DNA of 64,000 nucleotides. Origin: an uncultured bacterium (GTDB lineage Bacteria > Verrucomicrobiota > Kiritimatiellia > CAIKKV01 > CAIJXV01). The position numbers and the translations under genes were made by a program. The notes beneath the pieces are model-generated. The model was not told the DNA's origin and made no database searches. It saw only the letters and a program-made list of their open reading frames with translations. Numbering within the stretch: the stretch's first letter is position 1; the number at the start of each line of letters is the position of its first letter. Shown piece by piece: positions 47,021 to 60,833 of this stretch. The DNA lies in assembly GCA_903824675.1 (NCBI GenBank), contig CAIJXV010000088.1, forward strand, positions 7,318 through 71,317, in the 5' to 3' direction.

Positions 47021-47382
47021 GAAACCTTTGGATGCGAAAAAAACCCTTTTTGATATTCGCGCCCTTCCCACTCGAATCCCCGCGGCCATCGGCCGCGGCT
47101 ACAACCGATCTCCCTGTGGAGGTGGTCGCTGACCGCCTTTCTCCTCCCCATTGGGGTGCAAACGAAGTCCACCGAAAATTGTTCCGTCCCATTGCAGAAG
47201 AAAGCGATCTGACTGGATGCGGATGGAGATCCGGGGTAGTGCGAGCTCTCCGAGCGAGCCGAGGAACAACCCCGACGGTTCCCCCGGGCCTACTCCGCCG
47301 AAGTCAAGCCTCTGGCTACGAAGGCTGGAAGGTGTCGCCCGACCCGAGTCAACTACCGCTTGGCGGCTCTTTTTCTCCGGTG

Positions 47383-49458
47383 ATGTTTTGGAAAAAGCCC
47401 TGCATCTGGTTGTTGGCGGCGATGGGGTTGTTGGCGGGGAATCTGTTGGCCGCCGCGGAATGGCGCAGTAACGGCCGGGGGGGCGGCGCCTGGATGGAGG
47501 GTTCCGCCTGGCAGGGGGGACGGGTTCCCGGCGAACGGGATACGGTGCGGGTTGTCAGCGGCGACCAGTTGGTATATGCCGGCCTGACCCCGACGGGTCG
47601 GCTGACCTGCGCGGGAATTTTCATGGAGACCAATACGGTTCTCGAATTCAAGGCCGATGGGGGACATTATGTGTTGCGCGTAGCGGGGGCCATCCGCTCT
47701 TCCGGCACCCTCCGACTGGATGCGTCCAAAACACCCAAGGGGATGATGGAACTGCATCTGGTGGGCGAGCGTGAGGATGAGCGGATGATTCACTTGCTGT
47801 CCAATAGTCTATTTGTCGCGCACGGGGCAACTGGATTGCCGGAACGGCGCAATAACGTGCTGGTTTGTACCGGGCCCCCTCGTCCCGGCCAAATCCGCCG
47901 CTCGGCGGTGATCAAGGGTGAGGACTATGCCCGGGTGGACTTGAGCAACGTGGGATTGGCCTATCCTTCCGAGTTGCATTCCAACGGACGGGGCGGGGGG
48001 GCCTGGACCGATCCGTTGAGTTGGCGCGAAAAGATTGTGCCCTTCAGCGCCGACACGGTGATTCTAACGGCGGGCGACACGGTTGAATTCGATGGAGATG
48101 GGCGGACCGAGGCCTCGTGCCGGCGGCTGTTGCTCGATCCTCAATCGACGCTGACCTTTCGGGACGATGGGGAGACCCATGTGCTGAGCATCAATGGGGG
48201 GGTGGAATCTTATGGTTTGATCCGGCTGGACGGGCGGCATCAACCGCAAGGGGTACTCGAACTCCGGCTGGTGAGCGGCGATTCCGCGGATAACCAATTA
48301 ATTTGCAGAGATAAATCCGCCTTGTTTCTGGCGGGTCACGAAAGTCCGGTTGGCGGTCGGCCGAATGTGCGGATGACCGGTGGAAGTTTGGATACGGGGC
48401 GGCCAAAGAGTCTTCCCTTGAGGATCGAGGCCGGGGCGGGGGTGCAGATCGATTGTCAGCGCAGTGAATTCTCGAACGTGGTGCTTCGGGCTGAAAAACT
48501 GGACAATACGGGTGTTCGCTCGGATGAACGGATGCAATTGACCGGCAACCGGTTTATGGGCGCCGCGCGGGTGGAATTGGTCCAGTGTGATACCCCGGTG
48601 ATTCAAAAAAATATCTGGGTCGGGGGCGGCACGGCAGAGGCGAGCCCAACGGCGCTCAAACTCGACGGTTGTAGTCTGGCGCAATTGCAATACAACACCT
48701 TCTCCGGAGCGTATGAACGTGCGGTTTGGATCATCCGGGATACGGACAGTTCGGCGATGTTCAACGAGATCGTGGGGGCGAACCAGGGGTTTGATTGGCA
48801 AGGCCAGAATGCCATGTTGAAATCAAACCGGATTCGCGTCACAGGAGTGGGGGCGACCTTTGACAAGACACCGGCGGTCATCGAGAGTTCCACAATTGAA
48901 GGGAAGGTTCCCCTATTGGGCCGTCAGACCCACCTGCAGGTGAGCGATTGCGCTTTGTCGGCACCCGAAACGAACGGGCCCTTGATTCGATTGGAATCCG
49001 CTTCCGCAACGATTCTGAATGTTGCGTTGACGCCGGGGCAGGTTCAACGAGTCGGGACTGCGTCGGGTCCGTTCTGGGTGGAGACGATGAATTATGTGGT
49101 GGTCCGGTTGCGCGGGACGATTCCGGTCGGGGCTCGGGTGGCGATCCGGACGGCGAAAGCTTCCGGCGGACCTCCGGCGGGTGCGGCTGATATGAATGTG
49201 CGCAACAGTCCCGTACCGGTTTCGACAGAGGGGTGGACGCCTCTGCCACGAAGCTTGCGGTCTTTGATCGTCCGTGCCTGGAGTGTGACGGGCGCGGGGG
49301 TGGTGAAGGACTCCCCATTTTATGATCTGGACGTGACGGCGGCGGATCCAACCGGGCCCGTCCGGGTCGTTTCGACCCAAGTGGTGGAACCGAAAACGGA
49401 TTGGATCCGGCCTGATCCCCAGGCCGCGCAGGCCACCGTGGAGGTGAGCCTGCCATGA
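47383..49458 (+). CDS. Secreted protein with an internal ~150-aa duplication, likely beta-helix/beta-sandwich
   Basis: Signal peptide MFWKKPCIWLLAAMGLLAGNLLAAA at 47383. The ORF is open from 47017 (ATGA with the upstream stop), but that 122-aa extension is unstructured and lacks a signal. The modules NGRGGGAWxxxxxW...TVxxxxGDxxxxxG...RLDxxxTPKG/HQPQGxxELxLV repeat twice. Confidence 0.55.
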   Translation: MFWKKPCIWLLAAMGLLAGNLLAAAEWRSNGRGGGAWMEGSAWQGGRVPGERDTVRVVSGDQLVYAGLTPTGRLTCAGIFMETNTVLEFKADGGHYVLRVAGAIRSSGTLRLDASKTPKGMMELHLVGEREDERMIHLLSNSLFVAHGATGLPERRNNVLVCTGPPRPGQIRRSAVIKGEDYARVDLSNVGLAYPSELHSNGRGGGAWTDPLSWREKIVPFSADTVILTAGDTVEFDGDGRTEASCRRLLLDPQSTLTFRDDGETHVLSINGGVESYGLIRLDGRHQPQGVLELRLVSGDSADNQLICRDKSALFLAGHESPVGGRPNVRMTGGSLDTGRPKSLPLRIEAGAGVQIDCQRSEFSNVVLRAEKLDNTGVRSDERMQLTGNRFMGAARVELVQCDTPVIQKNIWVGGGTAEASPTALKLDGCSLAQLQYNTFSGAYERAVWIIRDTDSSAMFNEIVGANQGFDWQGQNAMLKSNRIRVTGVGATFDKTPAVIESSTIEGKVPLLGRQTHLQVSDCALSAPETNGPLIRLESASATILNVALTPGQVQRVGTASGPFWVETMNYVVVRLRGTIPVGARVAIRTAKASGGPPAGAADMNVRNSPVPVSTEGWTPLPRSLRSLIVRAWSVTGAGVVKDSPFYDLDVTAADPTGPVRVVSTQVVEPKTDWIRPDPQAAQATVEVSLP

Positions 49459-51227
49459 GAGAGATGAGTAATCCCAATGTCACACCCCTCACCCCCGCCC
49501 TCTCCCTCAAGGGGCGAGTGAGGAGACCAGACCCGGAATCCAACCTGATATCGGGGCCTTTTTCCGGGGATGGCGTCCCCTGTTTCCCATCTCTCCCCGA
49601 CGAGGGAGAGGTCGGAGCCGATCGCCGTTTCGGCGCGTCGGGTCCGGGTGAGGGGAATCGTTTAACGGTTCGATGGGGTCGGCGAGTTGTACTCGTGGCA
49701 GGGGTGTTGGCATTCCTCCTGTTCGGCGGCGGACCCAGCGCGTCATTGGCCCAGCGGACGGTCAGCTTCCCCCCAGCGGAAAGCAAGCCGCCGCCTCCAG
49801 TGAAGGCTCCGCCCCGGACGCAGTCCTCGGGGGAAGATACCAGCCTGCTTCCGGATTTCGGGCCGACGATGCGCAAGACCCAGGAGCGCCAGCCGCCGCC
49901 GCCGACCTCCCTGACGGTGATGTACAAGGTCGAGTATGGCGAAGCTTTGCAATATGTTTATCCGGATGGCACCGTCCAAAAATTCCAGCAATGGATGAGC
50001 TACCAGAACGACGGCTTTCAGCTGCTGAAATGGGTTAATGAACGCTTGCAGGATGGCAACAACTACCTGTATGCGACCAAACCGTTGGCCAGTCCCGGAT
50101 TCGATCCGGTCGATATTCCCCTGTTGTACATGACGGGCGATTATGATTTTCAATTGCGAGAGACGGAGGTCGCCAATCTGCGGCGGTTTTTATTGGATGG
50201 AGGCACGATCCTGTTCAATGCGGCCCGGGGACGGGATGATTTTTCGGCGGCGGTCGTCCGGGAAATGAAGCGCGTTTTTCCGCAGAAGAACATGATGAAA
50301 CTGCCGCCGGACCACCCGATTTTCAACAGCCGGTACCGGATCAACCAGGTGAATGTCATGATCAACGGGGTTCAGTTTTTACAACCGCCGGAATTATATG
50401 CCGTGGATATTGGTACGCGGTCGGCGGCCATCCTGGCGCCGTCCGGATTTGGTTCGGCCTGGAGCGGCGAAGCCTATCATCCCGGGGGACGGCATATGAT
50501 CGGGGAATCGGCCGTGCGGCTGGGGGTCAACCTGGTAGCCTATGTGCTGGCGAGTACGGAGTATGGTCGGTTTTTGGCGCAGGAATTTCCCGTGTATGAA
50601 GGGAGTTCCCGCGCGGGGGATGTTTTCCGGTTTGCCCTGGCGCGCTATGCCGGAAGTTGGGATGTGAACCCGGCCGTGCAGAATTCGATCCAGCAGGCGC
50701 TCAAGGAAAACACCGGGATCGATGTCGATTATGCGCCACATGCGATTAATCTGGACGACCCCGAGTTGGCCAATTTCCCGCTGGTGTTTATGACAGGGCA
50801 CTACGATTTCACGCTGACGGCGCCTGAGATTGAAAATCTGCGAGCCTTTCTGAACAAAGGCGGGTTGCTGGTGGGATTGCCGGCGGCGGGGTTCCAGCCG
50901 TTTACAACCGCTTTCCGGCGGGAGCTTCTCCGGGTTTTGCCGGAGACCGAATTCATTCCCATTCCTCCGTCCCACGCCGTGTTTAGCGGCGGATGGAATG
51001 CGATCGATCAAGTGGCCTATACGCCGCGGGCTCTGCGGGACGATCCGAGTTTGACGACCCCGCAATTTGACGGACTTTTTGTCCAACAGCGTCTGGCGGT
51101 ATTAGTGACGCCGTATGATGTTTTGAGTGGAGCCAATCGGGAGCCGAACGCTTACAGCAAAGGTCTGGTGGCGGACGATGCGCTGCGGGTCATGCTGAAT
51201 CTCATTACGCATGCGTTGAGTCATTAG
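49455..51227 (+). CDS. Protein with two tandem DUF4159-like domains
   Basis: Signal anchor VVLVAGVLAFLLFGG. Two copies of the module (P/F)LLYMTGDYDFQLRETEVANLRRFLLDGGTILFNA and FPLVFMTGHYDFTLTAPEIENLRAFLNKGGLLVGLP, matching the DUF4159 consensus as recalled. It is the last gene of the moxR operon. Confidence 0.6.
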   Translation: MREMSNPNVTPLTPALSLKGRVRRPDPESNLISGPFSGDGVPCFPSLPDEGEVGADRRFGASGPGEGNRLTVRWGRRVVLVAGVLAFLLFGGGPSASLAQRTVSFPPAESKPPPPVKAPPRTQSSGEDTSLLPDFGPTMRKTQERQPPPPTSLTVMYKVEYGEALQYVYPDGTVQKFQQWMSYQNDGFQLLKWVNERLQDGNNYLYATKPLASPGFDPVDIPLLYMTGDYDFQLRETEVANLRRFLLDGGTILFNAARGRDDFSAAVVREMKRVFPQKNMMKLPPDHPIFNSRYRINQVNVMINGVQFLQPPELYAVDIGTRSAAILAPSGFGSAWSGEAYHPGGRHMIGESAVRLGVNLVAYVLASTEYGRFLAQEFPVYEGSSRAGDVFRFALARYAGSWDVNPAVQNSIQQALKENTGIDVDYAPHAINLDDPELANFPLVFMTGHYDFTLTAPEIENLRAFLNKGGLLVGLPAAGFQPFTTAFRRELLRVLPETEFIPIPPSHAVFSGGWNAIDQVAYTPRALRDDPSLTTPQFDGLFVQQRLAVLVTPYDVLSGANREPNAYSKGLVADDALRVMLNLITHALSH

Positions 51228-51359
51228 TTTGGTCGGAATACGATGCGTAACGGGGCGCGGGGCGTCGGGCGGTGGCCGGTCTTGCGATTCGAGTTGAAAA
51301 GTGCTAAAATGTAAAAATTAAGTTTAAACTGGATGGCCAGCGGCAAGGAGACGGGTATT

Positions 51360-54062
51360 ATGAAAATCAGCGTGCAGATTTTATGCCTTTCCCTGTTATG
51401 GGTGACCCTGGTAGGGCGGCTGAGTGCGGCTGACTATTATGTGGCGACCAATGCAGTCCCGGCCTCGCCCTACAACGTCTGGTCCAAGGCGTTTACCAAT
51501 GTCCAGGATGCGTTGAATGTGGCGCGAGCCAACGACACGATCTACCTCGCCGGCCACGTGTTTGGGATTACGAATCAACTCAGTTGGACGGGGTTGGCCT
51601 ACGCGGTCACGATTCGCGGCGGGTATGTTGCCACCAATGAAACCAATCTGCCCGGCAGCAACAACCCGGCGCTTTGGCCGACGGTCATTGTGCGCACCTC
51701 AGGTACGAACGGCATCTGGATGCTCAACGGCGTAACGAACGGCACGCTGGCCCAGGTCACGATTGCCGGTGGCAGTAATACCTATAGTGGGCAGACGTAT
51801 GGCGGCGGACTTTATCTGACCAACTGTTTTGGACAGACGATCTCCTCTTGCGTCATCAGCGGGAATGTTGCTCGATCCACGTTGAATCATGGATATGCCT
51901 TCGGAGGCGGCATTTGTCTCGCCAAGAGTTCCGTAGTCCTGACCAATTGCGTGGTATTGCAGAACAAGGCGATCAGTGAGGGGAATTTTACGAGTGATGC
52001 CGGTTTGGGCGGCGGGTTGTTTGTGGCGGGTTCTGCGACCGCGACGGTTCGGGATTGTGTTTTCACCCTGAATGACGCGAATAATAACCTCTATCGTTAC
52101 GGCCAGGGCGGGGGTATTTATGCCGCCGGCACGGTGGTTCTCAAGAACTGCCTGTTGTTTGCCAACCGATCCTATACGGTGGGAGATGGACTTTATGTGA
52201 CGTCCGGGATTACCCGCGTCGAGAACTGCACGGTGGCCAGCCATGCCGACGACGGGATATACCGGGGGTCTGGCAGTTTCTCGGTCAGCAACTCCATCAT
52301 CTGGGACAACGGTGACGATATTGTGGGAACAGGAACCCTGGCGTATTGCTGTATCCAGGATGGCGATAGCAATGGAGTGAATGGTTGCATCAGCTCGAAT
52401 CCCCGTTTCGAATACGGCTATTATCTGCCGGCTGACAGTCCCTGTACCAATGCCGGATCGATGAGTGCGATCGACGCCGGACTCAGCGCTTACACGACGT
52501 TAACCAATGGGCAGGTGGATGGCGATACGGTGGATCTGGGTTATCACTATGCCGGCGCCTTCGATCCGACCTACTTGGATTTGTATGTTGCACCCGCACC
52601 AACGGGTAGTGATGGGTACGTCGGAACGGATCCCCTGTTCCCGCTGGCGACTATCGGCAAGGCGATTGCGAAAGCGAGGGATGGCAGTCGGATCCACATC
52701 GCCTCAGGCGCTTACACCAATGGTGCGGAGTCCTTCCCCCTGATACTGCTTGGCAAGGTGGGCGTACAACTCCTTGGAACGAACCGGGAGACGACCGTGG
52801 TGAGCGCTTCCGGGAGCAATCAACGGGTATTCACCCTGGTGGGGGCGCCCCTGAGTCGCATCGAAGGGCTTTCTGTCAGAGGAGGGAAATTCGCGGTAGC
52901 GGGAACCAGTTATGGCGGGGGTGTTTACGTCGACTCTTGTGGCGGAACGATTCTGGCCTCCTGTACTGTCATCAGCAATCGGGTGGAACCGTCGCTTTGG
53001 CATGCCCAAGGTTACGGCGGGGGCTTGGCTTGCATTGGGGGTTCATTGCTGGTTTCGAACTGTCAGTTCAGTTATAACGCGGCCTCGGGGTATGGCGACT
53101 CCGCGACCGATTTCGGTCGCGGCGGCGGCGTCTATGCGGGGGGTGAAGTGACGATCCGCGATACCGTTTTTAATATGAATGACGCAGTTTACGATAATCT
53201 CAGCAACGTTCGGTCCGGAGAAGGGGGCGGGGTATACGGAAACGGGCCGGTGGTGTTGAAAAATTGCCTGTTCTATGGAAACCGGGCGTTTGCCGCGGGT
53301 GACGGGATATGTGTGGGTGGGGGAACCTCGCGGGTCGAGAACTGCACTGTGGCCAATCATGCCGACGACGGGATCTACCGTTCGGGTGGTGTTCTATCGG
53401 TGAGCAACTCGATTGTCTGGGAAAACGGCGATGACATCACCGGCGTGGTCAGCCTGGCCTATTCCTGCATTCAGGACGGGGACAGCAACGGGGTCAACGG
53501 GTGTATTAATACGGATCCGTTGTTCGAGTATGGCTACTACCTGGGGGCGAATAGCCTATGCGTGAACACCGGCTCGATGAGTGCGGTGGCCGCGGGGCTC
53601 AGCGCATACACGACCCGCGCGGACGGACAGACTGACTCCGGGACCGTGGATTTGGGTTATCACTATAGTGCGGGTGCTGATTTGGGATATGCGGATCTTT
53701 ACGTGGCCCCGGCGCCGACGGGAAGCGACGGTTATGTCGGAACAAATCCTCTCCTGCCCCTGGCCACGATCACGAAGGCGATCTCGCTGGCCCGGGATGG
53801 AAGCCGGATTCATTTGTCGACCGGAGCTTACACGAACGGACCGGAAACCTTTCCCTTGAGGTTGATCGGGAAAGGCGGCGTGCAGTTGCTCGGGACCAAT
53901 CGTGAGGCGACCGTGATCAACGCGGCGCGGAGCGGCCAACGCGTATTGCTCGTCAGCAACGCACCCAATACGCGGGTTGAAGGGGTGACGATTACCGGCG
54001 GGACGGCAACCAACTCCACAGTCACCTCCTGCGGGGGGGGGGATTTATATCGACAACTCTAG
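51360..54062 (+). CDS. Giant parallel beta-helix repeat surface protein, N-terminal portion, interrupted by a G10 frameshift
   Basis: SD aaggag 9 nt upstream of the ATG at 51360. Signal peptide MKISVQILCLSLLWVTLVGRLSAA. Repeated modules NCTVA(N/S)HADDGIYR...VSNSI(I/V)W(D/E)NGDDI...CIQDGDSNGVNGCI...DLGYHY. The frame ends 7 codons after the G10 run at 54033..54042. Confidence 0.75.
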   Translation: MKISVQILCLSLLWVTLVGRLSAADYYVATNAVPASPYNVWSKAFTNVQDALNVARANDTIYLAGHVFGITNQLSWTGLAYAVTIRGGYVATNETNLPGSNNPALWPTVIVRTSGTNGIWMLNGVTNGTLAQVTIAGGSNTYSGQTYGGGLYLTNCFGQTISSCVISGNVARSTLNHGYAFGGGICLAKSSVVLTNCVVLQNKAISEGNFTSDAGLGGGLFVAGSATATVRDCVFTLNDANNNLYRYGQGGGIYAAGTVVLKNCLLFANRSYTVGDGLYVTSGITRVENCTVASHADDGIYRGSGSFSVSNSIIWDNGDDIVGTGTLAYCCIQDGDSNGVNGCISSNPRFEYGYYLPADSPCTNAGSMSAIDAGLSAYTTLTNGQVDGDTVDLGYHYAGAFDPTYLDLYVAPAPTGSDGYVGTDPLFPLATIGKAIAKARDGSRIHIASGAYTNGAESFPLILLGKVGVQLLGTNRETTVVSASGSNQRVFTLVGAPLSRIEGLSVRGGKFAVAGTSYGGGVYVDSCGGTILASCTVISNRVEPSLWHAQGYGGGLACIGGSLLVSNCQFSYNAASGYGDSATDFGRGGGVYAGGEVTIRDTVFNMNDAVYDNLSNVRSGEGGGVYGNGPVVLKNCLFYGNRAFAAGDGICVGGGTSRVENCTVANHADDGIYRSGGVLSVSNSIVWENGDDITGVVSLAYSCIQDGDSNGVNGCINTDPLFEYGYYLGANSLCVNTGSMSAVAAGLSAYTTRADGQTDSGTVDLGYHYSAGADLGYADLYVAPAPTGSDGYVGTNPLLPLATITKAISLARDGSRIHLSTGAYTNGPETFPLRLIGKGGVQLLGTNREATVINAARSGQRVLLVSNAPNTRVEGVTITGGTATNSTVTSCGGGDLYRQL
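54033..54042 (+). repeat. G10 homopolymer at the frameshift point of the giant beta-helix gene
   Basis: gcGGGGGGGGGGat. With 9 G the translation reads ...CGGGIYIDNSSGSMVLSSVISSN..., continuing into ORF 54070..57783 and matching sister modules (GGGVYVDSCGGTILASC..., GGGVYIENCSGVTLASC...). Confidence 0.9.
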
Positions 54063-54069
54063 CGGGAGC

Positions 54070-57000
54070 ATGGTGTTGTCGAGTGTGATTTCCAGCAACA
54101 AAGCGGAGTCGATCTCGCCCGCCAACCACGTAATGGGCTACGGGGGAGGGGTCTATTGCGGCAGTGGATCCCTGATCCTGTCGAACTGTGTCATTTCCAG
54201 CAACGCCGCCATCAGCCGGGGCGATTGGGCGACCGATCCCGGTTGTGGGGGCGGCATTTATGCGGCGGGTATTGTGACCCTCCAGCGGTGTGTTCTTTTT
54301 CAGAACGTGGCGACCAACGGCAGTAACCCCTATGGTGAAGGGGGCGGCGTGTATGGCATGGGAACGGTCTTGTTGCGGAATTGTCTGCTCTACGGAAATC
54401 GGGCACGTTCGGCTGCGGACGCGATCATGGTGCGGGGCGGGCAGATGAACCTGGAAAACTGCACCGTGGCCAACCACCCGCGCGACGGGATCTGGCGCAC
54501 CAATGGAACGGTTGCGGTGACGAACTCGATTGTCTGGAATAACGGGGATGATATTGTGGGGCCGATGACGCTGGGTTACTCCGACATTGAGGATGGGGAT
54601 AATAATACCACCAACGGTTGTTTTAGCGTCAATCCCCAATTTGCGGATACGACGAATTTTCATCTTCTATCAAAGGCCGGTTACTATGGCGGTGGGTATT
54701 TTAGTGGCGGGAGTTGGTCCACGAATACCGCGGTGTCAAATAATCCCTGCATCGACATGGGGAATCTCGCTTCGCCGTGGTCGGCGGAGCCCGCGCCTAA
54801 CGGTAGGCGGGTCAATCTGGGCGCGTACGGGAACACGGAGGTGGCGTCCCAGACCTTTCTGGAGGAACCGGGTACGTTCACGAATTTAACCGTGCATGCT
54901 TATCCGTTGGCGATTGCGGATTTGGGACCGGACTGGGCGATTCTGAAAGGCGAGGTCCTGCATACGGGAGGGGGGGCGAATCCGCAGGCCTATATCTGTT
55001 GGGCCACCTCCGACAAGGGGACCAGCGGAACCGACCAATGGACGCATGTGGAATCCATGGGAGCCCGGGCGCAATGGGAGCCCTTTTCAAACAATTTGTC
55101 AGGGTTGGCCCAGATCGCCTACTGTTTTCGCTGCTACGTGACGAACGATGTGGGAGAGGACTGGTCTGCGCCGGTGGTGTTCGGGATTCTGGTGCCGGCG
55201 GTAACCAATACAGGGGCGAGTCCGGTACGTCGGCGTTCGGCCCGGCTGAACGGACAGATTCTGGACGTTGGGGGCAGTACGCCCAGCGCTTGGTTCCACT
55301 ATTGGAAAACGGGGGATTCTGTGACCAATGTGGTTGTGATGAACTCTCAAACGGGAACCTTTAGCGCGCTCCTGTCACCGCTCCCGGTTAATACCAGTTA
55401 CTCTTACAGGATTCTGGCGTCGAACAGCTCGGGAAGTGTGTGGTCGGACATCAAAACCTTCGCGACCTGGAGCGATCCGACCGGATGGTATGTGGCCACG
55501 AACGGCAGCGGTGCCGGAGGGACCAATTGGACGACGGCCTTCACCAATATCCAGGATGCGATGGATGAAGTGGCGCCCAGCGATACGGTGTACCTGGCCG
55601 CCCAACGGTTTGCGGTGGGGCGACAGATCGAACTGACGAACCGGACGGATGTCAGTGTCCGCGGCGGTTATGCCGGTGTTGGCACACCGGGAAGTTTCTC
55701 GGCGGATCCCACCGTGATCACGCGACTGGTGAGTATTGATTCGTTCCGTCTTTGGTACATCAGCGGGGTAACGAACAGCACGCTGGATCGGTTGACGGTC
55801 ATGGGGGCTTCGAACGCCCAGTACCTCGCGACCGTGTATGGCGGAGGCTTTATGGTCACCAACTCCTCCAATCTAACCCTCGCCTCCTGTAACCTCCTCA
55901 GTAATCGAGTGGAATCGGCTAACTGGCATAGCTACAGTTATGGAGGTGGTTTGTGTTGTATGGCCGGATCCTCCGTGCTGCTGACCAACTGTGTCCTGTC
56001 CTATAATCAGGCTTTCGGTTGCGGAGATTTCGGTGTCGGATACAACCCGGGCGACAATGGGTATGGCGGTGCCATTTGTGCTCTGGGCACCGTGACGCTA
56101 CAGGACTGCCGGTTGTTCATGAACGAAGTGGATACGATTACGGCGAGCAGGGATGCGGGGCGGGGTGGCGCGGTCTATTCCTCCGGCCTCTTATCGATGC
56201 GGAATTGTTTGCTCTATCAGAATCGATCCCTGGCCCCTGTCAGCGGGTGGGGTGATGCGGTGTATGTCGGCGGCGGGACGTCATCGTTTCAGAATTGTAC
56301 CATCACCAGTCATTCGGACGACGGAATCTGCCGCGCGGCCGGTCTGGTCTCGGTCAGCAATTCGGTGGTGTGGGAAAATGGCGATGACATTACGGGAGTC
56401 GTGAGTCTGGCCTATTCCACCATCCAGGACGGGGACAGCAACGGGGTCAATTATTGTATCAGCGCCGATCCGATGTTCGAGATGGGCTATTATTTGGGAA
56501 CGAACAGTCTTTGCGTAAATGCCGGATCGATGAGTGCGGTTGCGGCGGGACTCGCCAATTATACCACTCGAACCGATGGACAGGCCGACGACGGAACCGT
56601 TGATTTGGGGTATCACTACACTGCGGGTCTGGACACGACGTATGCCGATTTGTATGTGACGCCGGCGCCGGTGGGCAATGATGTCAATGTGGGTACGAAT
56701 CCCGCCCTACCGTTGGCCACGATTACGAAAGCGATCGCCACGGCTCTGGACGGAACGCGTATTCATCTTTCCGCGGGTTCCTATACGAATGGGGTTGAGA
56801 CGTTCCCGCTGACGATTCAGGGGAAGAGCGGAGTGCAACTCCTGGGGACCAATAAGAGCCTGACCGTGATTAATGCCTGGGGGAGTAATCAACGCGTGCT
56901 GGTGTTGAATAATGCTCCCTTTGCGCGGATTGAAGGCGTCACTTTGACCGGAGGAAAGCTGCTCACGGGCAGCAATAATAGTTATGGAGGAGGCGTCTAC

Positions 57001-57783
57001 ATTGAAAACTGCAGCGGCGTAACCCTCGCATCCTGTCAAATTGTGTCCAACCGGACGGAAGTCACGGGGAGCACTGTTCACTACCTGGGTGCCGGTGGCG
57101 GTGTCTACTGCGCGAACGGCTCTCTGACCCTCTCAAACTGCGTCGTGGCCACCAATATTGCCTTATGCGGTGGCGACCAGCCGGGGGATTCGGGCCGGGG
57201 TGGTGGAATCTATGCGGCCGGATTGGTAACCCTGCTGAACTGCGCTATATTCAAGAATGAGGCGGGCAACACGATGCAACAGCTCGGTCAGGGAGGCGGT
57301 CTGTTCGCCAGCGGGACCTTGTTGATGCGGAATTGCCTGGTTTATACGAACCGGGCTTATTCCCAGGGCGATGCCCTTTATGTGGGCGGGGGCTCTGCTG
57401 TTTTGGAAAACTGCACGGTGGCGAACCATGGGCGCGACGGAATCTGGCGGACCAATGGGACGGTGGCGGTGACGAACTCGATTGTCTGGAACAACGGCGA
57501 TGATATCGTTGGATCGGTGACCCTGGGTTATTCTGATATTGAAGACGGGGATAGCAACGGGGTGAATGGTTGCGTAAACAGCAATCCGAAGTTCGTCAAT
57601 GCGGCTATCGGTGACTTCAAACTCGGGGTGGGATCCGCGGCGATCAACTTGGGTCTCAAACAGGATTGGATGACGACGGCCTCCATCGACCTTGCCGGCA
57701 ACCCGCGACTGGTGGGGAGCACGGTCGACATGGGAGCCTACGAGTCGTCGTCCGGTCTCGGCACCATATTCACGCTTTACTGA
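54070..57783 (+). CDS. Giant parallel beta-helix repeat surface protein, C-terminal portion (same gene as 51360..54062 if G10 becomes G9)
   Basis: The same module family as the upstream ORF, including a second YVATNGSGAGGTNWTTAFTNIQDAMDEV N-terminal-type module. No independent RBS or signal peptide. Confidence 0.7.
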   Translation: MVLSSVISSNKAESISPANHVMGYGGGVYCGSGSLILSNCVISSNAAISRGDWATDPGCGGGIYAAGIVTLQRCVLFQNVATNGSNPYGEGGGVYGMGTVLLRNCLLYGNRARSAADAIMVRGGQMNLENCTVANHPRDGIWRTNGTVAVTNSIVWNNGDDIVGPMTLGYSDIEDGDNNTTNGCFSVNPQFADTTNFHLLSKAGYYGGGYFSGGSWSTNTAVSNNPCIDMGNLASPWSAEPAPNGRRVNLGAYGNTEVASQTFLEEPGTFTNLTVHAYPLAIADLGPDWAILKGEVLHTGGGANPQAYICWATSDKGTSGTDQWTHVESMGARAQWEPFSNNLSGLAQIAYCFRCYVTNDVGEDWSAPVVFGILVPAVTNTGASPVRRRSARLNGQILDVGGSTPSAWFHYWKTGDSVTNVVVMNSQTGTFSALLSPLPVNTSYSYRILASNSSGSVWSDIKTFATWSDPTGWYVATNGSGAGGTNWTTAFTNIQDAMDEVAPSDTVYLAAQRFAVGRQIELTNRTDVSVRGGYAGVGTPGSFSADPTVITRLVSIDSFRLWYISGVTNSTLDRLTVMGASNAQYLATVYGGGFMVTNSSNLTLASCNLLSNRVESANWHSYSYGGGLCCMAGSSVLLTNCVLSYNQAFGCGDFGVGYNPGDNGYGGAICALGTVTLQDCRLFMNEVDTITASRDAGRGGAVYSSGLLSMRNCLLYQNRSLAPVSGWGDAVYVGGGTSSFQNCTITSHSDDGICRAAGLVSVSNSVVWENGDDITGVVSLAYSTIQDGDSNGVNYCISADPMFEMGYYLGTNSLCVNAGSMSAVAAGLANYTTRTDGQADDGTVDLGYHYTAGLDTTYADLYVTPAPVGNDVNVGTNPALPLATITKAIATALDGTRIHLSAGSYTNGVETFPLTIQGKSGVQLLGTNKSLTVINAWGSNQRVLVLNNAPFARIEGVTLTGGKLLTGSNNSYGGGVYIENCSGVTLASCQIVSNRTEVTGSTVHYLGAGGGVYCANGSLTLSNCVVATNIALCGGDQPGDSGRGGGIYAAGLVTLLNCAIFKNEAGNTMQQLGQGGGLFASGTLLMRNCLVYTNRAYSQGDALYVGGGSAVLENCTVANHGRDGIWRTNGTVAVTNSIVWNNGDDIVGSVTLGYSDIEDGDSNGVNGCVNSNPKFVNAAIGDFKLGVGSAAINLGLKQDWMTTASIDLAGNPRLVGSTVDMGAYESSSGLGTIFTLY

Positions 57784-57804
57784 TAGACTCAACGCTCAAC
57801 GACG

Positions 57805-58098
57805 ATGGCGCCTCATTCGGCTGAGGCCGTTGTTCTCCGGGTGGGCGAACTATTACGGGTCATCGATGCGGTTGGGGGCCAACCAGGCGATTGGGTGGCT
57901 TTCAATGCCAATAACCTGGCTGAACGTTTCAGCCAGTCCCGGACACGGGTTGAAAACCGGGTGTACCGGATTACCCCGGGGGCACACCCTGTGGAGCAAC
58001 ACTCTGCCCCCGCAGGTGATGTTGACGGTGACGGACGATTCCAGCGGACATCACGATCTTATTTTTTAATGTTCTGGCCGATCCCGCAGGAAGAATGA
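57805..58098 (+). other. Possible remnant ORF (DUF1989-like fragment?) in a 500-nt leader region
   Basis: 97-aa ORF. GQPGDWVAFNANNLAERFSQSRTR weakly recalls the DUF1989 family. No RBS and no partner domains. Confidence 0.2.
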
Positions 58099-58216
58099 CG
58101 GTAGGAAATCAATTGTCGAAACCGGGTGTCTTTATCGAATTGCAGGCCGAAATGGATTGTGTGGTGGCGATATCGACGTGTTCAGTGCCCATTGCCGGCC
58201 GCTAAATTATTCTACA

Positions 58217-58238
58217 AACTTTGTATTGCAAAGTACTC
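58217..58238. promoter_or_regulatory. 22-bp palindromic operator-like site (copy 1) overlapping a sigma70-like promoter (-35 TTGCAA, 17-nt spacer, -10 TATCTT)
   Basis: ACTTTGTATTGCAAAGTACTCT has inverted half-sites ACTTTG-N5-CAAAGT. It sits 41 nt upstream of the ATG at 58279. A 20/22-identical second copy is at 59282. Confidence 0.6.
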
Positions 58239-58278
58239 TGTTATCTGCTATCTTGATTCTGGAAATCAGGAGGACCAG

Positions 58279-58887
58279 ATGATTGCCAACCATATTCATG
58301 ATGCCCTGGCGCAGGTTCGACGGGTCCAGGCGGTGATCCTGGAGCGGCGCGCGTTTCGCGGTTATTCGGGGGCCGCTCGGGCCGCGGGGGGATTGGCGGC
58401 GTTGGCGGGCGCGGCCGTCCTGTCGTCCCCTGGTCTGCCACAAACTGAATGGGCGCATCTGATCGGGTGGGGTGGAGTCCTGCTCCTCGCCGTAAGCATT
58501 AACTATGGGGCGCTTCTCTATTGGTTTCTTTTTGACCCGGATGCCCGACGTGAATTTCTCCGCCTCATGCCGGCAGTGGATGCCATTCCACCCCTGGCAG
58601 TGGCAGGCATTCTCAGCCTGACCCTTATCGTCCACGGTCAGTTCGATCTCCTCTTCGGCACCTGGATGTGTCTCTATGGCCTGGTTCATGTTCCGTATCG
58701 GCTCTCTCTGCCACGCGCCAACTACGGCATCGGGCTCTATTACATCTTTTGCGGCACCGTCTGCTTACTCACCCCCCTCGGCCAGTTCTTACACCCCTGG
58801 ACCATGGGTCTCGTGTTTTTTATCGGGGAAATCAGTGGGGGACTGTTACTCCATCAACATCGGCTGGTTCAGGAGGAGAAACCATGA
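58279..58887 (+). CDS. Hypothetical polytopic membrane protein
   Basis: SD aggagga upstream of the ATG at 58279. 4-5 predicted TM helices. The stop overlaps the regulator's start (ATGA). Confidence 0.6.
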   Translation: MIANHIHDALAQVRRVQAVILERRAFRGYSGAARAAGGLAALAGAAVLSSPGLPQTEWAHLIGWGGVLLLAVSINYGALLYWFLFDPDARREFLRLMPAVDAIPPLAVAGILSLTLIVHGQFDLLFGTWMCLYGLVHVPYRLSLPRANYGIGLYYIFCGTVCLLTPLGQFLHPWTMGLVFFIGEISGGLLLHQHRLVQEEKP

Positions 58888-59261
58888 ATACAAAAGTAGA
58901 GACCCCTTACGAACAGTTGGCGAAGGTTTTTCATGAACCCAATCGGCTATCCATAGTATCCGCCCTTTGCGCGGCGGCGGAGGGGCTGACGTTCAACGAA
59001 CTTCGCGATGACTGTAATCTGACGGATGGGAACCTCAACCGGCATCTGGCCGTATTGCGCGAGGCCGGGGTAGTGCGGACCGACAAAACGTTTGTGGACG
59101 AGAAACCGAGGACAACGGTGTTTATCACGCGGACAGGACTCGACCGGTTTCAAGAGTATTTGACCGCCCTCCAGGAAGTGTTGAAGACAGCCCAGAAGGC
59201 TATTCCGTCCGATAAAAAAGCGGCGCATTTATCCGGCGCCCTCCGCGCCGTCACGCGCTAA
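58884..59261 (+). CDS. Winged-helix transcriptional regulator (HTH_34 / ArsR-PadR-like small wHTH)
   Basis: EPNRLSIVSALCAAAEGLTFNELRDDCNLTDGNLNRHLAVLREAGVVR is a winged helix-turn-helix. 125 aa. ATGA-coupled to the upstream membrane protein gene. Confidence 0.7.
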   Translation: MNTKVETPYEQLAKVFHEPNRLSIVSALCAAAEGLTFNELRDDCNLTDGNLNRHLAVLREAGVVRTDKTFVDEKPRTTVFITRTGLDRFQEYLTALQEVLKTAQKAIPSDKKAAHLSGALRAVTR

Positions 59262-59281
59262 GCGCGTGTTTTTGGTCTTAT

Positions 59282-59303
59282 ACTTTGTAATGCAGAGTAC
59301 TCT
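59282..59303. promoter_or_regulatory. 22-bp operator-like site (copy 2), 25 nt upstream of the next operon's start
   Basis: ACTTTGTAATGCAGAGTACTCT, 20/22 identical to copy 1. Flanking sequence is unrelated. The downstream TATATA is -10-like. Confidence 0.6.
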
Positions 59304-59327
59304 ATATAACAACATCTGGAGGTGGAT

Positions 59328-60104
59328 ATGAACGGTGAAGTGGGATCGGAGAAGATCGGACCGCAAACAGGCGACGCCCCAAATTCAGCTTCGCCACCGC
59401 CCCTCCCGGGGCAAAGAGCCGCCCCTTGTTCCCGGCGCGAACCCTTGCAGGCGGATGCGGGAATTCTGGCGGTGGCCGATGCTCTGCTCAAGAGTCCGGG
59501 GGCCATTAGGCAGGAGGTTTTACATCGTAACCACCGGGTTCGCTTCCTCCTTCTAGGGCTGGTGCTCGCAGGTACCGCCGCGTATGGATTGACGATGGGT
59601 TCTTTTTCCGGCGGAATGCAACTCTGGGCCGTGCCTCTAAAAACCATGAGCATGGTGCTTTTCAGCGCGTTGCTGTGCCTCCCGAGCCTTTATATTCTTA
59701 CCGCCCTGGGCGGGGGTGAACGGAATCTGACGCAGGTGGCGGGCATTTTGCTCCAGGCTCTGGGACTGACCAGCCTGCTGTTGCTGGGCTTTGCTCCGAT
59801 TGCCTGGATCTTCTCGCAGTCGACCTCTAGCCTCGGGTTCATGGGGGCGCTTCACATGGTGTTTTGGGGTATTTCACTCGCGGTCGGTCTGCGCCTGTTA
59901 TTCAAAGACGTCAATGCCGGGCAGTCGGGGCAACCGGCCGGGATGTTGGGTTTATGGTGTGTGGTGTTCTGTGCCGTTTTGTTGCAGATGGGCACGGTGC
60001 TTCGCCCTCTGATCGGCCCCGCGGATCGGGTTCTGGAGAGCGGCAAAAAATTCTTTATTGTGAATATCGGAGAGACTCTGGCGGAGGCGCCGCACGAGCG
60101 GTGA
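59328..60104 (+). CDS. Hypothetical membrane protein (paralog family A)
   Basis: SD ggagg upstream of the ATG at 59328. Multiple TM helices. Its core aligns with the next ORF (G..YG...G....L.AVK.PLL.FS.LL). Confidence 0.55.
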   Translation: MNGEVGSEKIGPQTGDAPNSASPPPLPGQRAAPCSRREPLQADAGILAVADALLKSPGAIRQEVLHRNHRVRFLLLGLVLAGTAAYGLTMGSFSGGMQLWAVPLKTMSMVLFSALLCLPSLYILTALGGGERNLTQVAGILLQALGLTSLLLLGFAPIAWIFSQSTSSLGFMGALHMVFWGISLAVGLRLLFKDVNAGQSGQPAGMLGLWCVVFCAVLLQMGTVLRPLIGPADRVLESGKKFFIVNIGETLAEAPHER

Positions 60105-60110
60105 TCGAAC

Positions 60111-60833
60111 ATGGGCAACGGACTGACCGAAATAGGAGCATTGTGTCGCATGAACCGGCTGATGGCGTCCCAACTGGCGGACGCGGATGCAGCGGGCTTG
60201 CGGCGGGTCATGGTCGGGATCGTGCTGGGAGGTCTGATTTATGGCTTTTGTTTCGGAGTCTGGCGATCCCCGTTACAAGGCCTTTATTCGGCTGTCAAAA
60301 TGCCACTCCTATTTTTCAGTGTGGTGTTGGCAAGTGCGGTGATCAATACCTTGATCGCCCGGGTGGCGGGTTGCAGCCTGCGGTTGGGACAGGTGTTGGT
60401 GTGCATGCTGACGGCCTTTGCGGTCATGGCGGCGGTGGCGGGGAGTCTGGCGCCGGTGGTGGGACTTTTTGTGATGTGCGCTCCGGTTCCTCGGAGTGAG
60501 CCGGCTGTGGCGGCACAGGCTTACCGCGCGTTGCTCCTCCTGCATGTGGGGGTATTGGCGCTGGCCGGTATCATTGGAAATCGTCGAGCCCTGCGCCTGT
60601 TGGAAACCATGGTGGGGGAGAAACGACGGGCGCGGAGGGTGGGACTGGTCTGGTTGTTGACGGCGGGATTTGTAGGCTGCCAACTCTCGTGGTTGTTCAG
60701 CCCCTTCCTTTGCAAACCGACACAGGAACCGCACCTGTTGCCGCGTGAGTATTTTCAGGAAAACTTTTATGAAAGGGTCTGGCACACGCTGCGGGCACTC
60801 AACAATCAGTCATTGGAAGAAAGGAGCGGGTGA
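60111..60833 (+). CDS. Hypothetical membrane protein (paralog family A)
   Basis: 6 nt downstream of the previous stop. TM-rich. Paralogous core to 59328..60104. Confidence 0.55.
   Translation: MGNGLTEIGALCRMNRLMASQLADADAAGLRRVMVGIVLGGLIYGFCFGVWRSPLQGLYSAVKMPLLFFSVVLASAVINTLIARVAGCSLRLGQVLVCMLTAFAVMAAVAGSLAPVVGLFVMCAPVPRSEPAVAAQAYRALLLLHVGVLALAGIIGNRRALRLLETMVGEKRRARRVGLVWLLTAGFVGCQLSWLFSPFLCKPTQEPHLLPREYFQENFYERVWHTLRALNNQSLEERSG

What the first reader, a model, noticed from the sequence alone, without database searches (positions are those of the whole stretch)
54025..54075. G10 homopolymer splits a ~2150-aa beta-helix surface protein gene: phase-variable contingency locus or sequencing error
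The ORFs 51360..54062 and 54070..57783 belong to one repeat-module family. Removing one G from gcGGGGGGGGGGat (54033..54042) gives continuous ...CGGGIYIDNSSGSMVLSSVISSN... This exactly parallels sister modules elsewhere in the gene (GGGVYVDSCGGTILASCTVISN and GGGVYIENCSGVTLASCQIVSN). The downstream ORF has no RBS or signal peptide of its own. Long poly-G tracts are classic slipped-strand switches for surface antigens, so this may be an ON/OFF (or full-length/truncated) switch for a giant adhesin-like protein. It could equally be a homopolymer miscall.
Basis: seen in the sequence. Interest (0 to 1): 0.8.

Follow-up and report, generated by a model that had tools for sequence, protein, structure and literature searches.

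The report
Variable poly-G tract splits secreted-protein gene
A run of ten G's breaks one very large secreted beta-helix protein gene of an uncultured Verrucomicrobiota-like bacterium into two reading frames, and public metagenomes carry the same gene with 8, 9 or 10 G's, so this is a real slippage-prone on/off site of a well-known kind, not a sequencing error.

Summary
G10 lies at 54033..54042. Removing one G fuses ORFs 51360..54062 and 54070..57783 into one 2140-aa gene with five beta-helix modules.

It is not a miscall:
- G10 recurs in at least seven other public assemblies of the same strain.
- A Logan contig (SRR23493621) has G9 and an intact 2140-aa gene. That gene is otherwise 100% identical to the window over 6.4 kb.
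- A 97.6%-identical strain has G8, the other wrong frame, in five assemblies.

Between strains both gene halves show dN/dS of 0.11-0.15, like intact neighbours, with no other stop codons.

Best reading: a slipped-strand hotspot toggles the gene between a full-length form (G9) and a truncated form (G8 or G10). The window carries the OFF/truncated state.

Reversible switching within a clone is not shown. Tract length is constant within each lineage. The four SNPs inside the G10 lineage are all non-synonymous. The G8 strain has also lost the gene's 5' end. Incipient pseudogenisation at a mutational hotspot therefore remains a serious rival.

Precedents are close: Akkermansia Amuc_1413 (G9 ON, G8/G10 OFF) and chlamydial pmpG. 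This is a new member of a known kind, of moderate interest.

The parts
51282..51310 (+). sigma-70-like promoter candidate (TTGCGA-17-TAAAAT with TG extension) in the AT-rich spacer ahead of the gene
   Evidence: Consensus scan. The number of such sites in the region equals the shuffle expectation, so this is weak evidence. It lies within the segment 51273..51458 that is replaced in strain B.
51345..51350 (+). Shine-Dalgarno-like AAGGAG, 9 nt before the ATG at 51360
   Evidence: Read from the sequence printed. It supports 51360 rather than 51333 as the start.
51360..57783 (+). The whole gene. It is a single 2140-aa ORF when the tract is G9. It has five beta-helix modules (DUF1565 cap, GGG.Y rungs, choice-of-anchor-Q-like end) plus a central Ig-like stretch.
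   Evidence: Fusion. An identical intact protein, P0094, is encoded on L001. Pfam Beta_helix E=2.5e-35 and DUF1565 E=2.4e-18. Module alignment.
51360..51428 (+). Signal-peptide-like N-terminus MKISVQILCLSLLWVTLVGRLSA|AD
   Evidence: Read from the translation. This is an inference; no predictor was run.
51360..54062 (+). Upstream reading frame in the G10 state: a 900-aa product with the signal peptide, modules 1-2 and the cap of module 3, ending ...CGGGDLYRQL*
   Evidence: The exact protein is present on 6 public contigs.
54033..54042 (+). G10 homopolymer. The in-frame form is G9 = GGG GGG GGG, which encodes the Gly-Gly-Gly of the first rung of module 3.
   Evidence: Lengths of 8, 9 and 10 are seen in related contigs.
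54060..54062 (+). Premature TAG reached in the G10 frame, 18 nt after the tract
54070..57783 (+). Downstream reading frame, 1237 aa: the rest of module 3, the Ig-like middle, and modules 4-5. It has no signal peptide. Its ATG lies 7 nt after the premature stop.
   Evidence: The exact protein is P0001.
57613..57747 (+). C-terminal choice-of-anchor Q domain (...DLAGNPRLVGSTVDMGAYE)
   Evidence: NCBIfam NF041518, 32.4 bits against a cut-off of 25, residues 1182-1226 of the downstream ORF.
57810..57827 (+). Terminator-like hairpin 27 nt after the stop codon
   Evidence: Consensus scan. This is weak evidence.

Best explanation
The G tract is a real, heritable, slippage-prone simple-sequence repeat inside one 6.4-kb gene. 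The gene encodes a Sec-exported protein with five beta-helix modules, in an uncultured Verrucomicrobiota-like (PVC) bacterium.

**Shown**
- With 9 G's the gene is read through as 2140 aa.
- With 10 G's (this window) or 8 G's the frame is lost at the first rung of module 3.

**Inferred**
- In the G10 state the cell makes at most a 900-aa secreted two-module fragment.
- It may also make, by reinitiation at the ATG 7 nt after the stop, a 1237-aa fragment that has no export signal.
- Gain or loss of one G by slipped-strand mispairing during replication converts the states into one another. The locus therefore behaves as a full-length/truncated (ON/OFF) phase-variable gene, and the window shows the OFF state.

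**Confidence by step**
- About 0.9 that the tract-length differences are biological.
- About 0.6 that the locus still works as a reversible switch rather than being on its way to loss.
- Whether switching is selected for, for example to escape phages, grazers or other surface-recognising enemies, is unknown.
For: 1. **Three tract lengths in near-identical DNA.**
   - G10 occurs in the window and in L002, L005, L006, L007, L010 and L064. It is also implied by identical 900-aa products in ERZ1426737 and ERZ1426771.
   - G9 occurs in L001.
   - G8 occurs in L003, L004, L008 and L009. It is implied in GCA_041445565.1 by the product ending ...SYGGGFISTT....
2. **The tract is the only difference.** L001 (G9) differs from the window by nothing else over 51092..57971. 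It then shows 48 substitutions over 57972..60783, so it is a different strain, not the same data.
3. **Two independent frame losses of opposite sign at the same 9-bp site.** There is no other stop or indel in 6.3 kb of the G8 allele.
4. **Purifying selection on both halves.** dN/dS between strains A and B is 0.11 upstream and 0.15 downstream. Intact neighbours range from 0.06 to 0.27.
5. **Controls in the same assemblies.** The G8 tract at 41797 is constant. A poly-C tract in the neighbouring gene is C9-G-CC in the window. In strain B it is C12 (intact) or C13 (frameshifted) with zero other differences over 6.2 kb. Instability therefore scales with tract length.
6. **Precedent in the same phylum.** In Akkermansia muciniphila Amuc_1413, G9 became G10 repeatedly in culture, and G8 and G10 variants occur among genomes (PMC13055324).
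Against: - Tract length is constant within each lineage: every strain-A assembly has G10 and every strain-B assembly has G8. No switch was caught within a lineage.
- 13 of 14 assemblies carry an OFF allele.
- The four SNPs that arose inside the G10 lineage are all non-synonymous. My arithmetic gives P about 0.007 under the long-term ratio of 35 non-synonymous to 84 synonymous changes, and about 0.3 under neutrality. This hints at relaxed constraint.
- Strain B has also lost the promoter region, start codon and signal peptide. Window 51273..51458 is replaced there by unrelated DNA with an in-frame stop.
- The tract needs no selection to exist. One all-GGG Gly-Gly-Gly among 23 is about what codon usage predicts.
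- The tract sits mid-gene, not near the 5' end as in many classic contingency genes.
- No reads were available, so within-population heterogeneity is untested.
Confidence: 0.6

Rival explanations
1. Incipient pseudogene. The gene is dispensable and is being lost. The G tract is simply the most mutable site, so independent lineages were knocked out there (G9 to G10 in strain A, G9 to G8 in strain B). The OFF states are effectively permanent, and no selection maintains switching.
For: - The tract length is fixed per lineage across many assemblies.
- All 4 SNPs within the G10 lineage are non-synonymous.
- Strain B also lacks the 5' end of the gene.
- The gene is accessory. It is absent next to the DUF4159 gene in the nearest related species and in 46 other PVC loci, and synteny ends exactly at 51227/51272.
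- The tract is explicable by chance codon choice.
Against: - No second lesion occurs anywhere in 6.4 kb of the G10 alleles.
- dN/dS of both halves is as low as in intact neighbours, so any inactivation is recent.
- An intact G9 allele with an identical sequence still circulates.
- An excess of non-synonymous variants among very close strains is common even in functional genes. The neighbouring DUF4159 gene carries a nonsense SNP in one of the same assemblies.
- A G9/G10 tract will revert at an appreciable rate whatever selection does (PMC13055324).
Confidence: 0.3
2. Sequencing or assembly error. The true sequence is G9 everywhere, and G10 and G8 are homopolymer miscalls.
For: - Long G/C homopolymers are error-prone on several platforms. 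PMC4488443 raises the same caveat for pmpG.
- The G9 allele is seen in only one assembly.
Against: - G10 is reproduced in at least seven further assemblies made with different assemblers and under different accession series. Some of these carry their own private SNPs.
- G8 is reproduced in five assemblies of another strain.
- A systematic error would not give +1 in one strain and -1 in the other.
- The G8 tract at 41797 and the C9 tract at 43871 are in frame in the window. The G8 tract is constant in all assemblies.
Confidence: 0.04
3. Recoding. The G10 (or G8) allele is the functional form, and full-length protein is made by +1 (or -1) ribosomal frameshifting or by RNA-polymerase slippage on the G run.
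For: - A run of G's allows tRNA-Gly to re-pair perfectly after a one-base slip.
- Both halves of the gene remain under purifying selection although most alleles are out of frame.
Against: - Programmed frameshifts are conserved in one direction. Here +1, 0 and -1 alleles all occur within 2.4% divergence.
- No rare or stop codon sits at the slip site to stimulate +1 shifting; the next codon is GAT.
- From general knowledge, transcriptional slippage is efficient on A/T runs and much weaker on G/C runs.
- No evidence was obtained here.
Confidence: 0.05
4. Two genuinely separate genes that happen to abut at a G run.
For: Gene callers in NCBI, JGI and ENA annotate two ORFs.
Against: - One Pfam domain and one repeat module span the junction.
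- An intact single-ORF allele exists.
- The downstream ORF lacks an export signal, whereas every module belongs to an exported protein.
Confidence: 0.01

Closest known systems
Akkermansia muciniphila Amuc_1413 poly-G tract (PMC13055324; tracts first noted in PMC3048395)
   Same: - Same phylum-level group (Verrucomicrobiota).
- An intragenic G9 is the in-frame ON state.
- G10 and G8 variants truncate the protein and are found among sequenced genomes.
- The mechanism is slipped-strand mispairing.
   Different: - There the tract is near the 5' end (codon 55) of a 735-aa exopolysaccharide-export gene.
- G9 to G10 was observed experimentally in culture, with 87-91% read support and a phenotype (loss of mucin binding).
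- Here the tract is mid-gene (codon 891-893 of 2140) in a beta-helix repeat protein of an uncultured bacterium. Only between-lineage variation is documented.
Chlamydial pmpG-family poly-G phase variation (C. pneumoniae pmp10, C. abortus, C. trachomatis pmpG; PMC4488443, bioRxiv 10.1101/506121)
   Same: - Same PVC superphylum.
- A large exported beta-helix repeat protein with Gly-rich rung motifs.
- An in-frame poly-G of 8-9 or more, with frameshifted variants among strains.
- The same ambiguity between phase variation and pseudogenisation is discussed for that family.
   Different: - No Chlam_PMP (PF02415) repeats and no autotransporter beta-barrel were detected here.
- The architecture is five tandem DUF1565/beta-helix/choice-of-anchor-Q modules.
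- The organism is apparently free-living, not an obligate intracellular pathogen.
Classic simple-sequence contingency loci of Neisseria, Haemophilus, Campylobacter and Helicobacter (Moxon et al., cited in PMC4488443; review PMC11868660)
   Same: A homopolymeric G/C tract in the coding region of an envelope or surface-related gene, where a change of one repeat unit switches the reading frame.
   Different: - Those loci have measured switching rates, multiple loci per genome and demonstrated selective value.
- Here no rate is measured.
- There are only hints of several tracts in the same genome: C12/C13 in the neighbouring gene, and several G/C runs of 8-11 in strain-specific DNA.
DUF1565 / right-handed beta-helix / choice-of-anchor Q secreted repeat proteins of PVC and other environmental bacteria
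   Same: - Pfam DUF1565 and Beta_helix, and NCBIfam choice_anch_Q, all score above their cut-offs.
- Homologues of 1200-3600 aa at 30-43% identity come from metagenomes.
   Different: - No function is known for the family.
- No solved relative was found by sequence.
- The fold search gave only generic beta-solenoid matches: tailspikes, polysaccharide lyases and epimerases.

Membership tests
Simple-sequence-repeat phase-variable (contingency) locus | A homopolymer or short tandem repeat long enough to be hypermutable (about 8 or more G/C) in the coding region or promoter | tested here: met
   G10 at 54033..54042 inside the ORF.
Simple-sequence-repeat phase-variable (contingency) locus | A change of one repeat unit switches the gene between an intact and a truncated reading frame | tested here: met
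   G9 gives 2140 aa. G10 stops after 6 further codons. G8 stops after 17 further codons.
Simple-sequence-repeat phase-variable (contingency) locus | Repeat number differs among very closely related genomes while the flanks are conserved | tested here: met
   G8, G9 and G10 occur in contigs 97.6-100% identical to the window. The G9 and G10 alleles have 0 other differences in 6.4 kb.
Simple-sequence-repeat phase-variable (contingency) locus | Reversible, high-frequency switching within a clonal population (mixed tract lengths in reads or colonies) | not testable with these tools
   No read data are available. Consensus length is constant within each lineage. The neighbouring C12/C13 tract does differ between two sister samples of one strain.
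Simple-sequence-repeat phase-variable (contingency) locus | The gene is otherwise maintained: no secondary lesions, and purifying selection on both sides of the repeat | tested here: inconclusive
   For: dN/dS is 0.11 upstream and 0.15 downstream, with no other stops, comparable to neighbours. Against: 4 of 4 non-synonymous SNPs within the G10 lineage, and the 5' end is replaced in strain B.
Simple-sequence-repeat phase-variable (contingency) locus | The product acts at the cell surface or in interaction with the environment | tested here: inconclusive
   There is a signal-peptide-like N-terminus, beta-helix modules and a choice-of-anchor Q domain. No anchor or localisation could be established.
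Chlamydial polymorphic membrane protein (Pmp) family | Multiple GGA(I/L/V) and FxxN repeats (Pfam Chlam_PMP, PF02415) | tested here: not met
   No PF02415 match at E<=1 on the fused protein. The motifs here are GGG(I/V/L)(Y/F) ... N. Some distant homologues do carry PF02415.
Chlamydial polymorphic membrane protein (Pmp) family | C-terminal autotransporter beta-barrel | tested here: not met
   No autotransporter domain in the Pfam or NCBIfam scans. The protein ends 12 residues after the choice-of-anchor Q motif.
DUF1565 / beta-helix / choice-of-anchor Q repeat proteins | Pfam DUF1565 and Beta_helix above gathering score | tested here: met
   DUF1565 scores 66.8 bits (cut-off 20.3). Beta_helix scores 121.9 bits (cut-off 25.9).
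DUF1565 / beta-helix / choice-of-anchor Q repeat proteins | NCBIfam NF041518 choice-of-anchor Q domain above cut-off | tested here: met
   32.4 bits against a cut-off of 25, at the C-terminus.
Programmed frameshift / transcriptional-slippage gene | The same out-of-frame arrangement is conserved among relatives | tested here: not met
   +1, 0 and -1 arrangements all occur within 2.4% divergence.
Programmed frameshift / transcriptional-slippage gene | Full-length product or edited mRNA made from the out-of-frame allele | not testable with these tools
   This needs metatranscriptome or metaproteome data.

The most novel reading that the evidence does not exclude
This uncultured, apparently free-living Verrucomicrobiota-like lineage runs a multi-locus contingency system.

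- Several long G/C tracts sit in adjacent giant exported-protein genes and in strain-specific glycosyltransferase or lipase DNA.
  - The beta-helix gene has G8, G9 or G10.
  - The PA14/TPR gene has C9-G-CC in the window, or C12/C13 in strain B.
  - Strain-specific DNA has runs of 8-11.
- These tracts would switch independently and generate combinatorial envelope variants, for example against phages or grazers.
- The mid-gene tract would act as a 'full-length versus secreted two-module fragment' switch rather than a simple ON/OFF switch.
- The states could be tracked directly in public time-series metagenomes.
Probability: 0.2. Interest if true: 0.55.

Novelty: new member of a known kind. Interest (0 to 1): 0.35.

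Why it matters
- **For annotation.** The two 'hypothetical proteins' at 51360..54062 and 54070..57783 should be treated as one 2140-aa gene carrying a tract-length frameshift. They are not two genes, and the break is not an assembly error.
- **For biology.** Homopolymer phase variation is documented almost entirely in host-associated pathogens and commensals. Here there is an ON allele and both OFF alleles of a giant exported protein gene in an uncultured environmental PVC bacterium, plus a second variable tract next door. All are recoverable from public metagenomes.
- **What it makes testable.** Read-level analysis of existing data could show whether free-living bacteria use contingency loci.
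- **Limits.** The mechanism itself is textbook. A near-identical G9/G8/G10 case has been shown experimentally in Akkermansia. The surprise value is therefore modest.

Tried and rejected
- **Exact-pattern scans.** GTCAMCTCCTRCGGN{3,14}ATTTATATCGACAAC found nothing in genome contigs or metagenome contigs. No extra census of tract lengths came from those collections.
- **Synteny search for orthologues.** Searching via the neighbouring DUF4159 protein gave 47 PVC loci. None encodes a homologue of the beta-helix gene. The nearest species (L011, about 82% nt) loses synteny exactly at the end of the DUF4159 gene. Tract conservation at intermediate distance could therefore not be tested. The next-best homologues are only 30-43% identical.
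- **Junction-only protein search.** A 160-aa query returned nothing and cost one capped search.
- **Function of the protein.**
  - No PDB relative by sequence.
  - The AlphaFold model of module 5 was mediocre: mean pLDDT 57.9, core 70-90.
  - Foldseek gave only generic beta-solenoid hits at E>=1.9e-3.
  - No PADLOC defence-family match.
  - 'Adhesin' therefore remains a guess.
- **Homoplasy or reversion on the allele tree.** This was rejected as unprovable. L001 (G9) and the window (G10) have identical gene sequences, and L010 (G10) differs by 3 SNPs. One G9-to-G10 event therefore suffices.
- **Statistical enrichment of the tract.** Not supported.
- **Other.** There are no tRNA genes in the window to mark an island boundary.
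Full report
**Observation**

Window 54033..54042 is an uninterrupted run of ten G's between TGC and ATT. It is the longest homopolymer in the window. The next longest are a C9 at 43871 and a G8 at 41797, both in frame inside long ORFs.

The upstream ORF begins at 51333 in the ORF listing, but 51360 is the likely start. AAGGAG lies 9 nt before it, and the N-terminus MKISVQILCLSLLWVTLVGRLSA|AD looks like a signal peptide. NCBI, ENA and Logan gene calls use this start. In the G10 frame this ORF ends at TAG 54060..54062, as ...TSCGGGDLYRQL*. The downstream ORF is 54070..57783, 1237 aa, with no signal peptide.

Deleting one G gives a single ORF of 2140 aa. The fused stretch TSCGGGIYIDNSSGSMVLSSVISSN aligns column for column with the first beta-helix rung of the four sister modules, which are 40-58% identical. 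On the fused protein the Pfam DUF1565 match (residues 787-942) runs across the junction at residue 892.

**Is the tract itself beyond chance?**

No.
- Dinucleotide-preserving shuffles of the window give a mean of 1.74 G10/C10 runs, and 66 of 100 shuffles have at least one.
- Of the 23 Gly-Gly-Gly motifs in the gene, exactly one is written GGG GGG GGG. The expectation from the gene's Gly codon usage is 0.58.
- Real related genomes are poorer in such runs: one run of 10 or more in 732 kb of PVC loci.

The existence of the tract is therefore not evidence of selection. What is informative is its behaviour across genomes.

**One gene, and a real polymorphism**

An exact-sequence look-up put both ORF products in one 90%-identity cluster of 11 proteins. 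That cluster also contains a 2140-aa protein, P0094, identical to my in-silico fusion. Fetching the DNA gave these tract lengths:

| Tract | Where | Notes |
|---|---|---|
| G10 | L002, L005, L006, L007, L010, L064 | ENA assemblies under three accession series, 0-3 SNPs from the window |
| G10 (implied) | ERZ1426737, ERZ1426771 | No DNA available; identical 900-aa products |
| G9 | L001 (Logan, SRR23493621) | Intact gene |
| G8 | L003, L004 (JGI 3300044987/90), L008, L009 (SRR35365863, SRR21424293) | Strain 97.6% identical |
| G8 (implied) | NCBI MAG GCA_041445565.1 | Product ends ...SYGGGFISTTPAGAWCCRV* |

L001 has no other difference from the window over 51092..57971. It then has 48 substitutions over 57972..60783. 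It is therefore an independent strain whose gene differs by one G only.

A random or systematic miscall cannot explain +1 in one lineage, -1 in another and 0 in a third, each reproduced across assemblies. The sequencing-error reading is essentially excluded. 'Two separate genes' is excluded by the intact allele and by the domain continuity.

**Selection**

After normalising the tract, the strain-B allele has no other stop or indel across 6324 aligned bases. Nei-Gojobori dN/dS against the window is as follows:

| Region | dN/dS |
|---|---|
| Whole gene | 0.13 |
| Upstream of the tract | 0.11 |
| Downstream of the tract | 0.15 |
| Four intact neighbouring genes | 0.06-0.27 |

Neither half has been a long-standing pseudogene.

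Two independent frame losses of opposite sign hit the same 9-bp site in a 6.4-kb gene. This shows that the tract is by far the most mutable position (inference; a uniform mutation model would give about 10/6423 per event).

**A second tract behaves the same way**

In the neighbouring PA14/PKD/TPR gene (43448..47020) the window has C9-G-CC (...NPPPA...). Strain B has an uninterrupted C12 that leaves the gene intact at 1192 aa (L059, L060). In a sister sample it has C13, which frameshifts the gene to a 1077-aa call (L058/L061). There are zero other differences over 6.2 kb. The G8 at 41797 is unchanged in every assembly and strain. Instability therefore increases with tract length, as expected for replication slippage.

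**Evidence pointing towards decay rather than a maintained switch**

- The tract length is constant within each lineage at consensus level, and 13 of 14 assemblies are OFF.
- The four SNPs that arose within the G10 lineage are all non-synonymous: 52260 Y>D in L064, and 52818 N>D, 55753 W>R and 55763 S>T in L010. By my arithmetic the probability is about 0.007 under the long-term 35:84 ratio and about 0.3 under neutrality. Very recent polymorphism is generally enriched in non-synonymous changes, however. One of the same assemblies carries a nonsense SNP in the conserved DUF4159 neighbour (50832 G>T).
- In strain B, window 51273..51458 is replaced by about 219 nt of unrelated DNA with an in-frame stop. 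That segment holds the promoter-like site, the Shine-Dalgarno sequence, the start codon and the signal peptide. All five strain-B contigs break there. The same 127 nt continue into different genes on other contigs of the same samples. The strain-B copy therefore looks dead or silent.
- The gene is accessory. The closest species (L011, about 82% nt identity, 'uncultured Verrucomicrobiota bacterium') is syntenic up to the end of the DUF4159 gene and then unrelated. None of 47 PVC loci has a homologue nearby.

**What the protein is**

- Pfam Beta_helix (E=2.5e-35) and DUF1565 (E=2.4e-18), and a C-terminal choice-of-anchor Q domain above cut-off.
- Five modules of about 370 aa, with an Ig-like stretch in the middle.
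- No Chlam_PMP repeats and no autotransporter barrel.
- No PADLOC match and no PDB relative by sequence.
- An AlphaFold model of module 5 has a beta-solenoid core (pLDDT 70-90 in the core, 57.9 overall). Foldseek gives only weak generic matches to tailspikes and to polysaccharide lyases and epimerases.
- 'Exported beta-helix repeat protein' is supported. 'Adhesin' is not tested.
- A promoter-like site at 51282..51310 and a terminator-like hairpin at 57810..57827 suggest a monocistronic unit, but this is weak evidence.

**Mechanism**

Shown: G9 reads through, and G10 and G8 truncate at the first rung of module 3.

Inferred:
- One-base slippage during replication interconverts the states.
- In the G10 state the cell can export only a 900-aa two-module fragment.
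- Ribosomes terminating at 54062 might reinitiate at the ATG 7 nt downstream. That product would lack an export signal.
- Recoding by ribosomal or transcriptional slippage is possible in principle. It is disfavoured because all three frames occur among close relatives.

**Comparison with known systems**

- The closest precedent is Akkermansia muciniphila Amuc_1413. Its G9 tract became G10 repeatedly during laboratory evolution, with loss of mucin binding, and G8 and G10 variants occur among genomes (PMC13055324; tracts noted earlier in PMC3048395).
- Chlamydial pmpG-family genes are also from the PVC superphylum and also encode beta-helix repeat proteins. They carry poly-G tracts with frameshift variants, and the same phase-variation-versus-pseudogene ambiguity is discussed for them (PMC4488443; bioRxiv 10.1101/506121).
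- This locus works like those, but it is not a Pmp: the defining repeats and the barrel were tested and not met.

**Verdict**

This is a real tract-length polymorphism in a single gene, and the window carries the OFF/truncated allele. It is a new member of a well-known kind. Whether it is a maintained contingency switch (about 0.6) or a gene being lost through its most fragile site (about 0.3) needs read-level data.

Noticed in passing
window 43871..43882 (gene 43448..47020); L059 1930, L060 1930, L058 1584: There is a second variable homopolymer. The window has C9-G-CC, in frame (NPPPA). Strain B has an uninterrupted C12 with an intact 1192-aa gene in two samples. In a sister sample it has C13, frameshifted to a 1077-aa call, with 0 other differences in 6.2 kb.
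   Followed up: yes
window 51228..51458; L003 1..135, L061 11579..11789, L062 11579..11710, L011 after 11581: The DNA just downstream of the DUF4159 gene is a structural-variation hotspot. The window has the beta-helix gene there. Strain B has about 219 nt of unrelated DNA replacing the gene's promoter, start and signal peptide. On other contigs of the same samples, that same 127-nt stretch continues into an OEP/RND efflux operon or into PIN/glycosyltransferase genes. The nearest species has yet other genes at this position.
   Followed up: partly
L062 13029, 15871, 15920, 16500, 17712; L061 18916: Strain-B-specific accessory DNA is unusually rich in G/C runs of 8-11. It has five within about 5 kb, in and between glycosyltransferase-region genes, and a run of 11 in a GDSL-lipase gene. 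By comparison there are 10 runs of 8 or more in 732 kb of other PVC loci. This may indicate more contingency loci in this species.
   Followed up: no
window 50832 (gene 49455..51227); L006: The BUCK21-1_SAMEA6872903 assembly, and ERZ1426737, carry a G>T nonsense SNP. It splits the conserved DUF4159 gene into 459-aa and 118-aa products.
   Followed up: partly
L011 8718 vs window ~48190 (gene 47017..49458): The nearest related species has an in-frame G10 (INGGGE) in the orthologue of the G8-domain gene. The window has the interrupted G7-T-GG (INGGVE) at that position.
   Followed up: partly
window 57972..60783 vs L001 6881..9691: L001 is identical to the window across the whole beta-helix gene. 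Immediately downstream it is 1.7% divergent, including a cluster of 10 substitutions within 59908..59937. This suggests a recombination boundary at the 3' end of the gene.
   Followed up: no
window 52260, 52818, 55753, 55763: All four SNPs seen among G10-lineage alleles (L064, L010) are non-synonymous, and none is synonymous.
   Followed up: yes
window 33305..51227: The gene follows a long co-directional cluster with overlapping stop and start codons. The cluster encodes large membrane or exported proteins of unknown function: a 1251-aa protein, a PA14/PKD/TPR protein, a G8-domain protein and a DUF4159 protein. It is conserved at about 82% nt identity in the nearest species.
   Followed up: no
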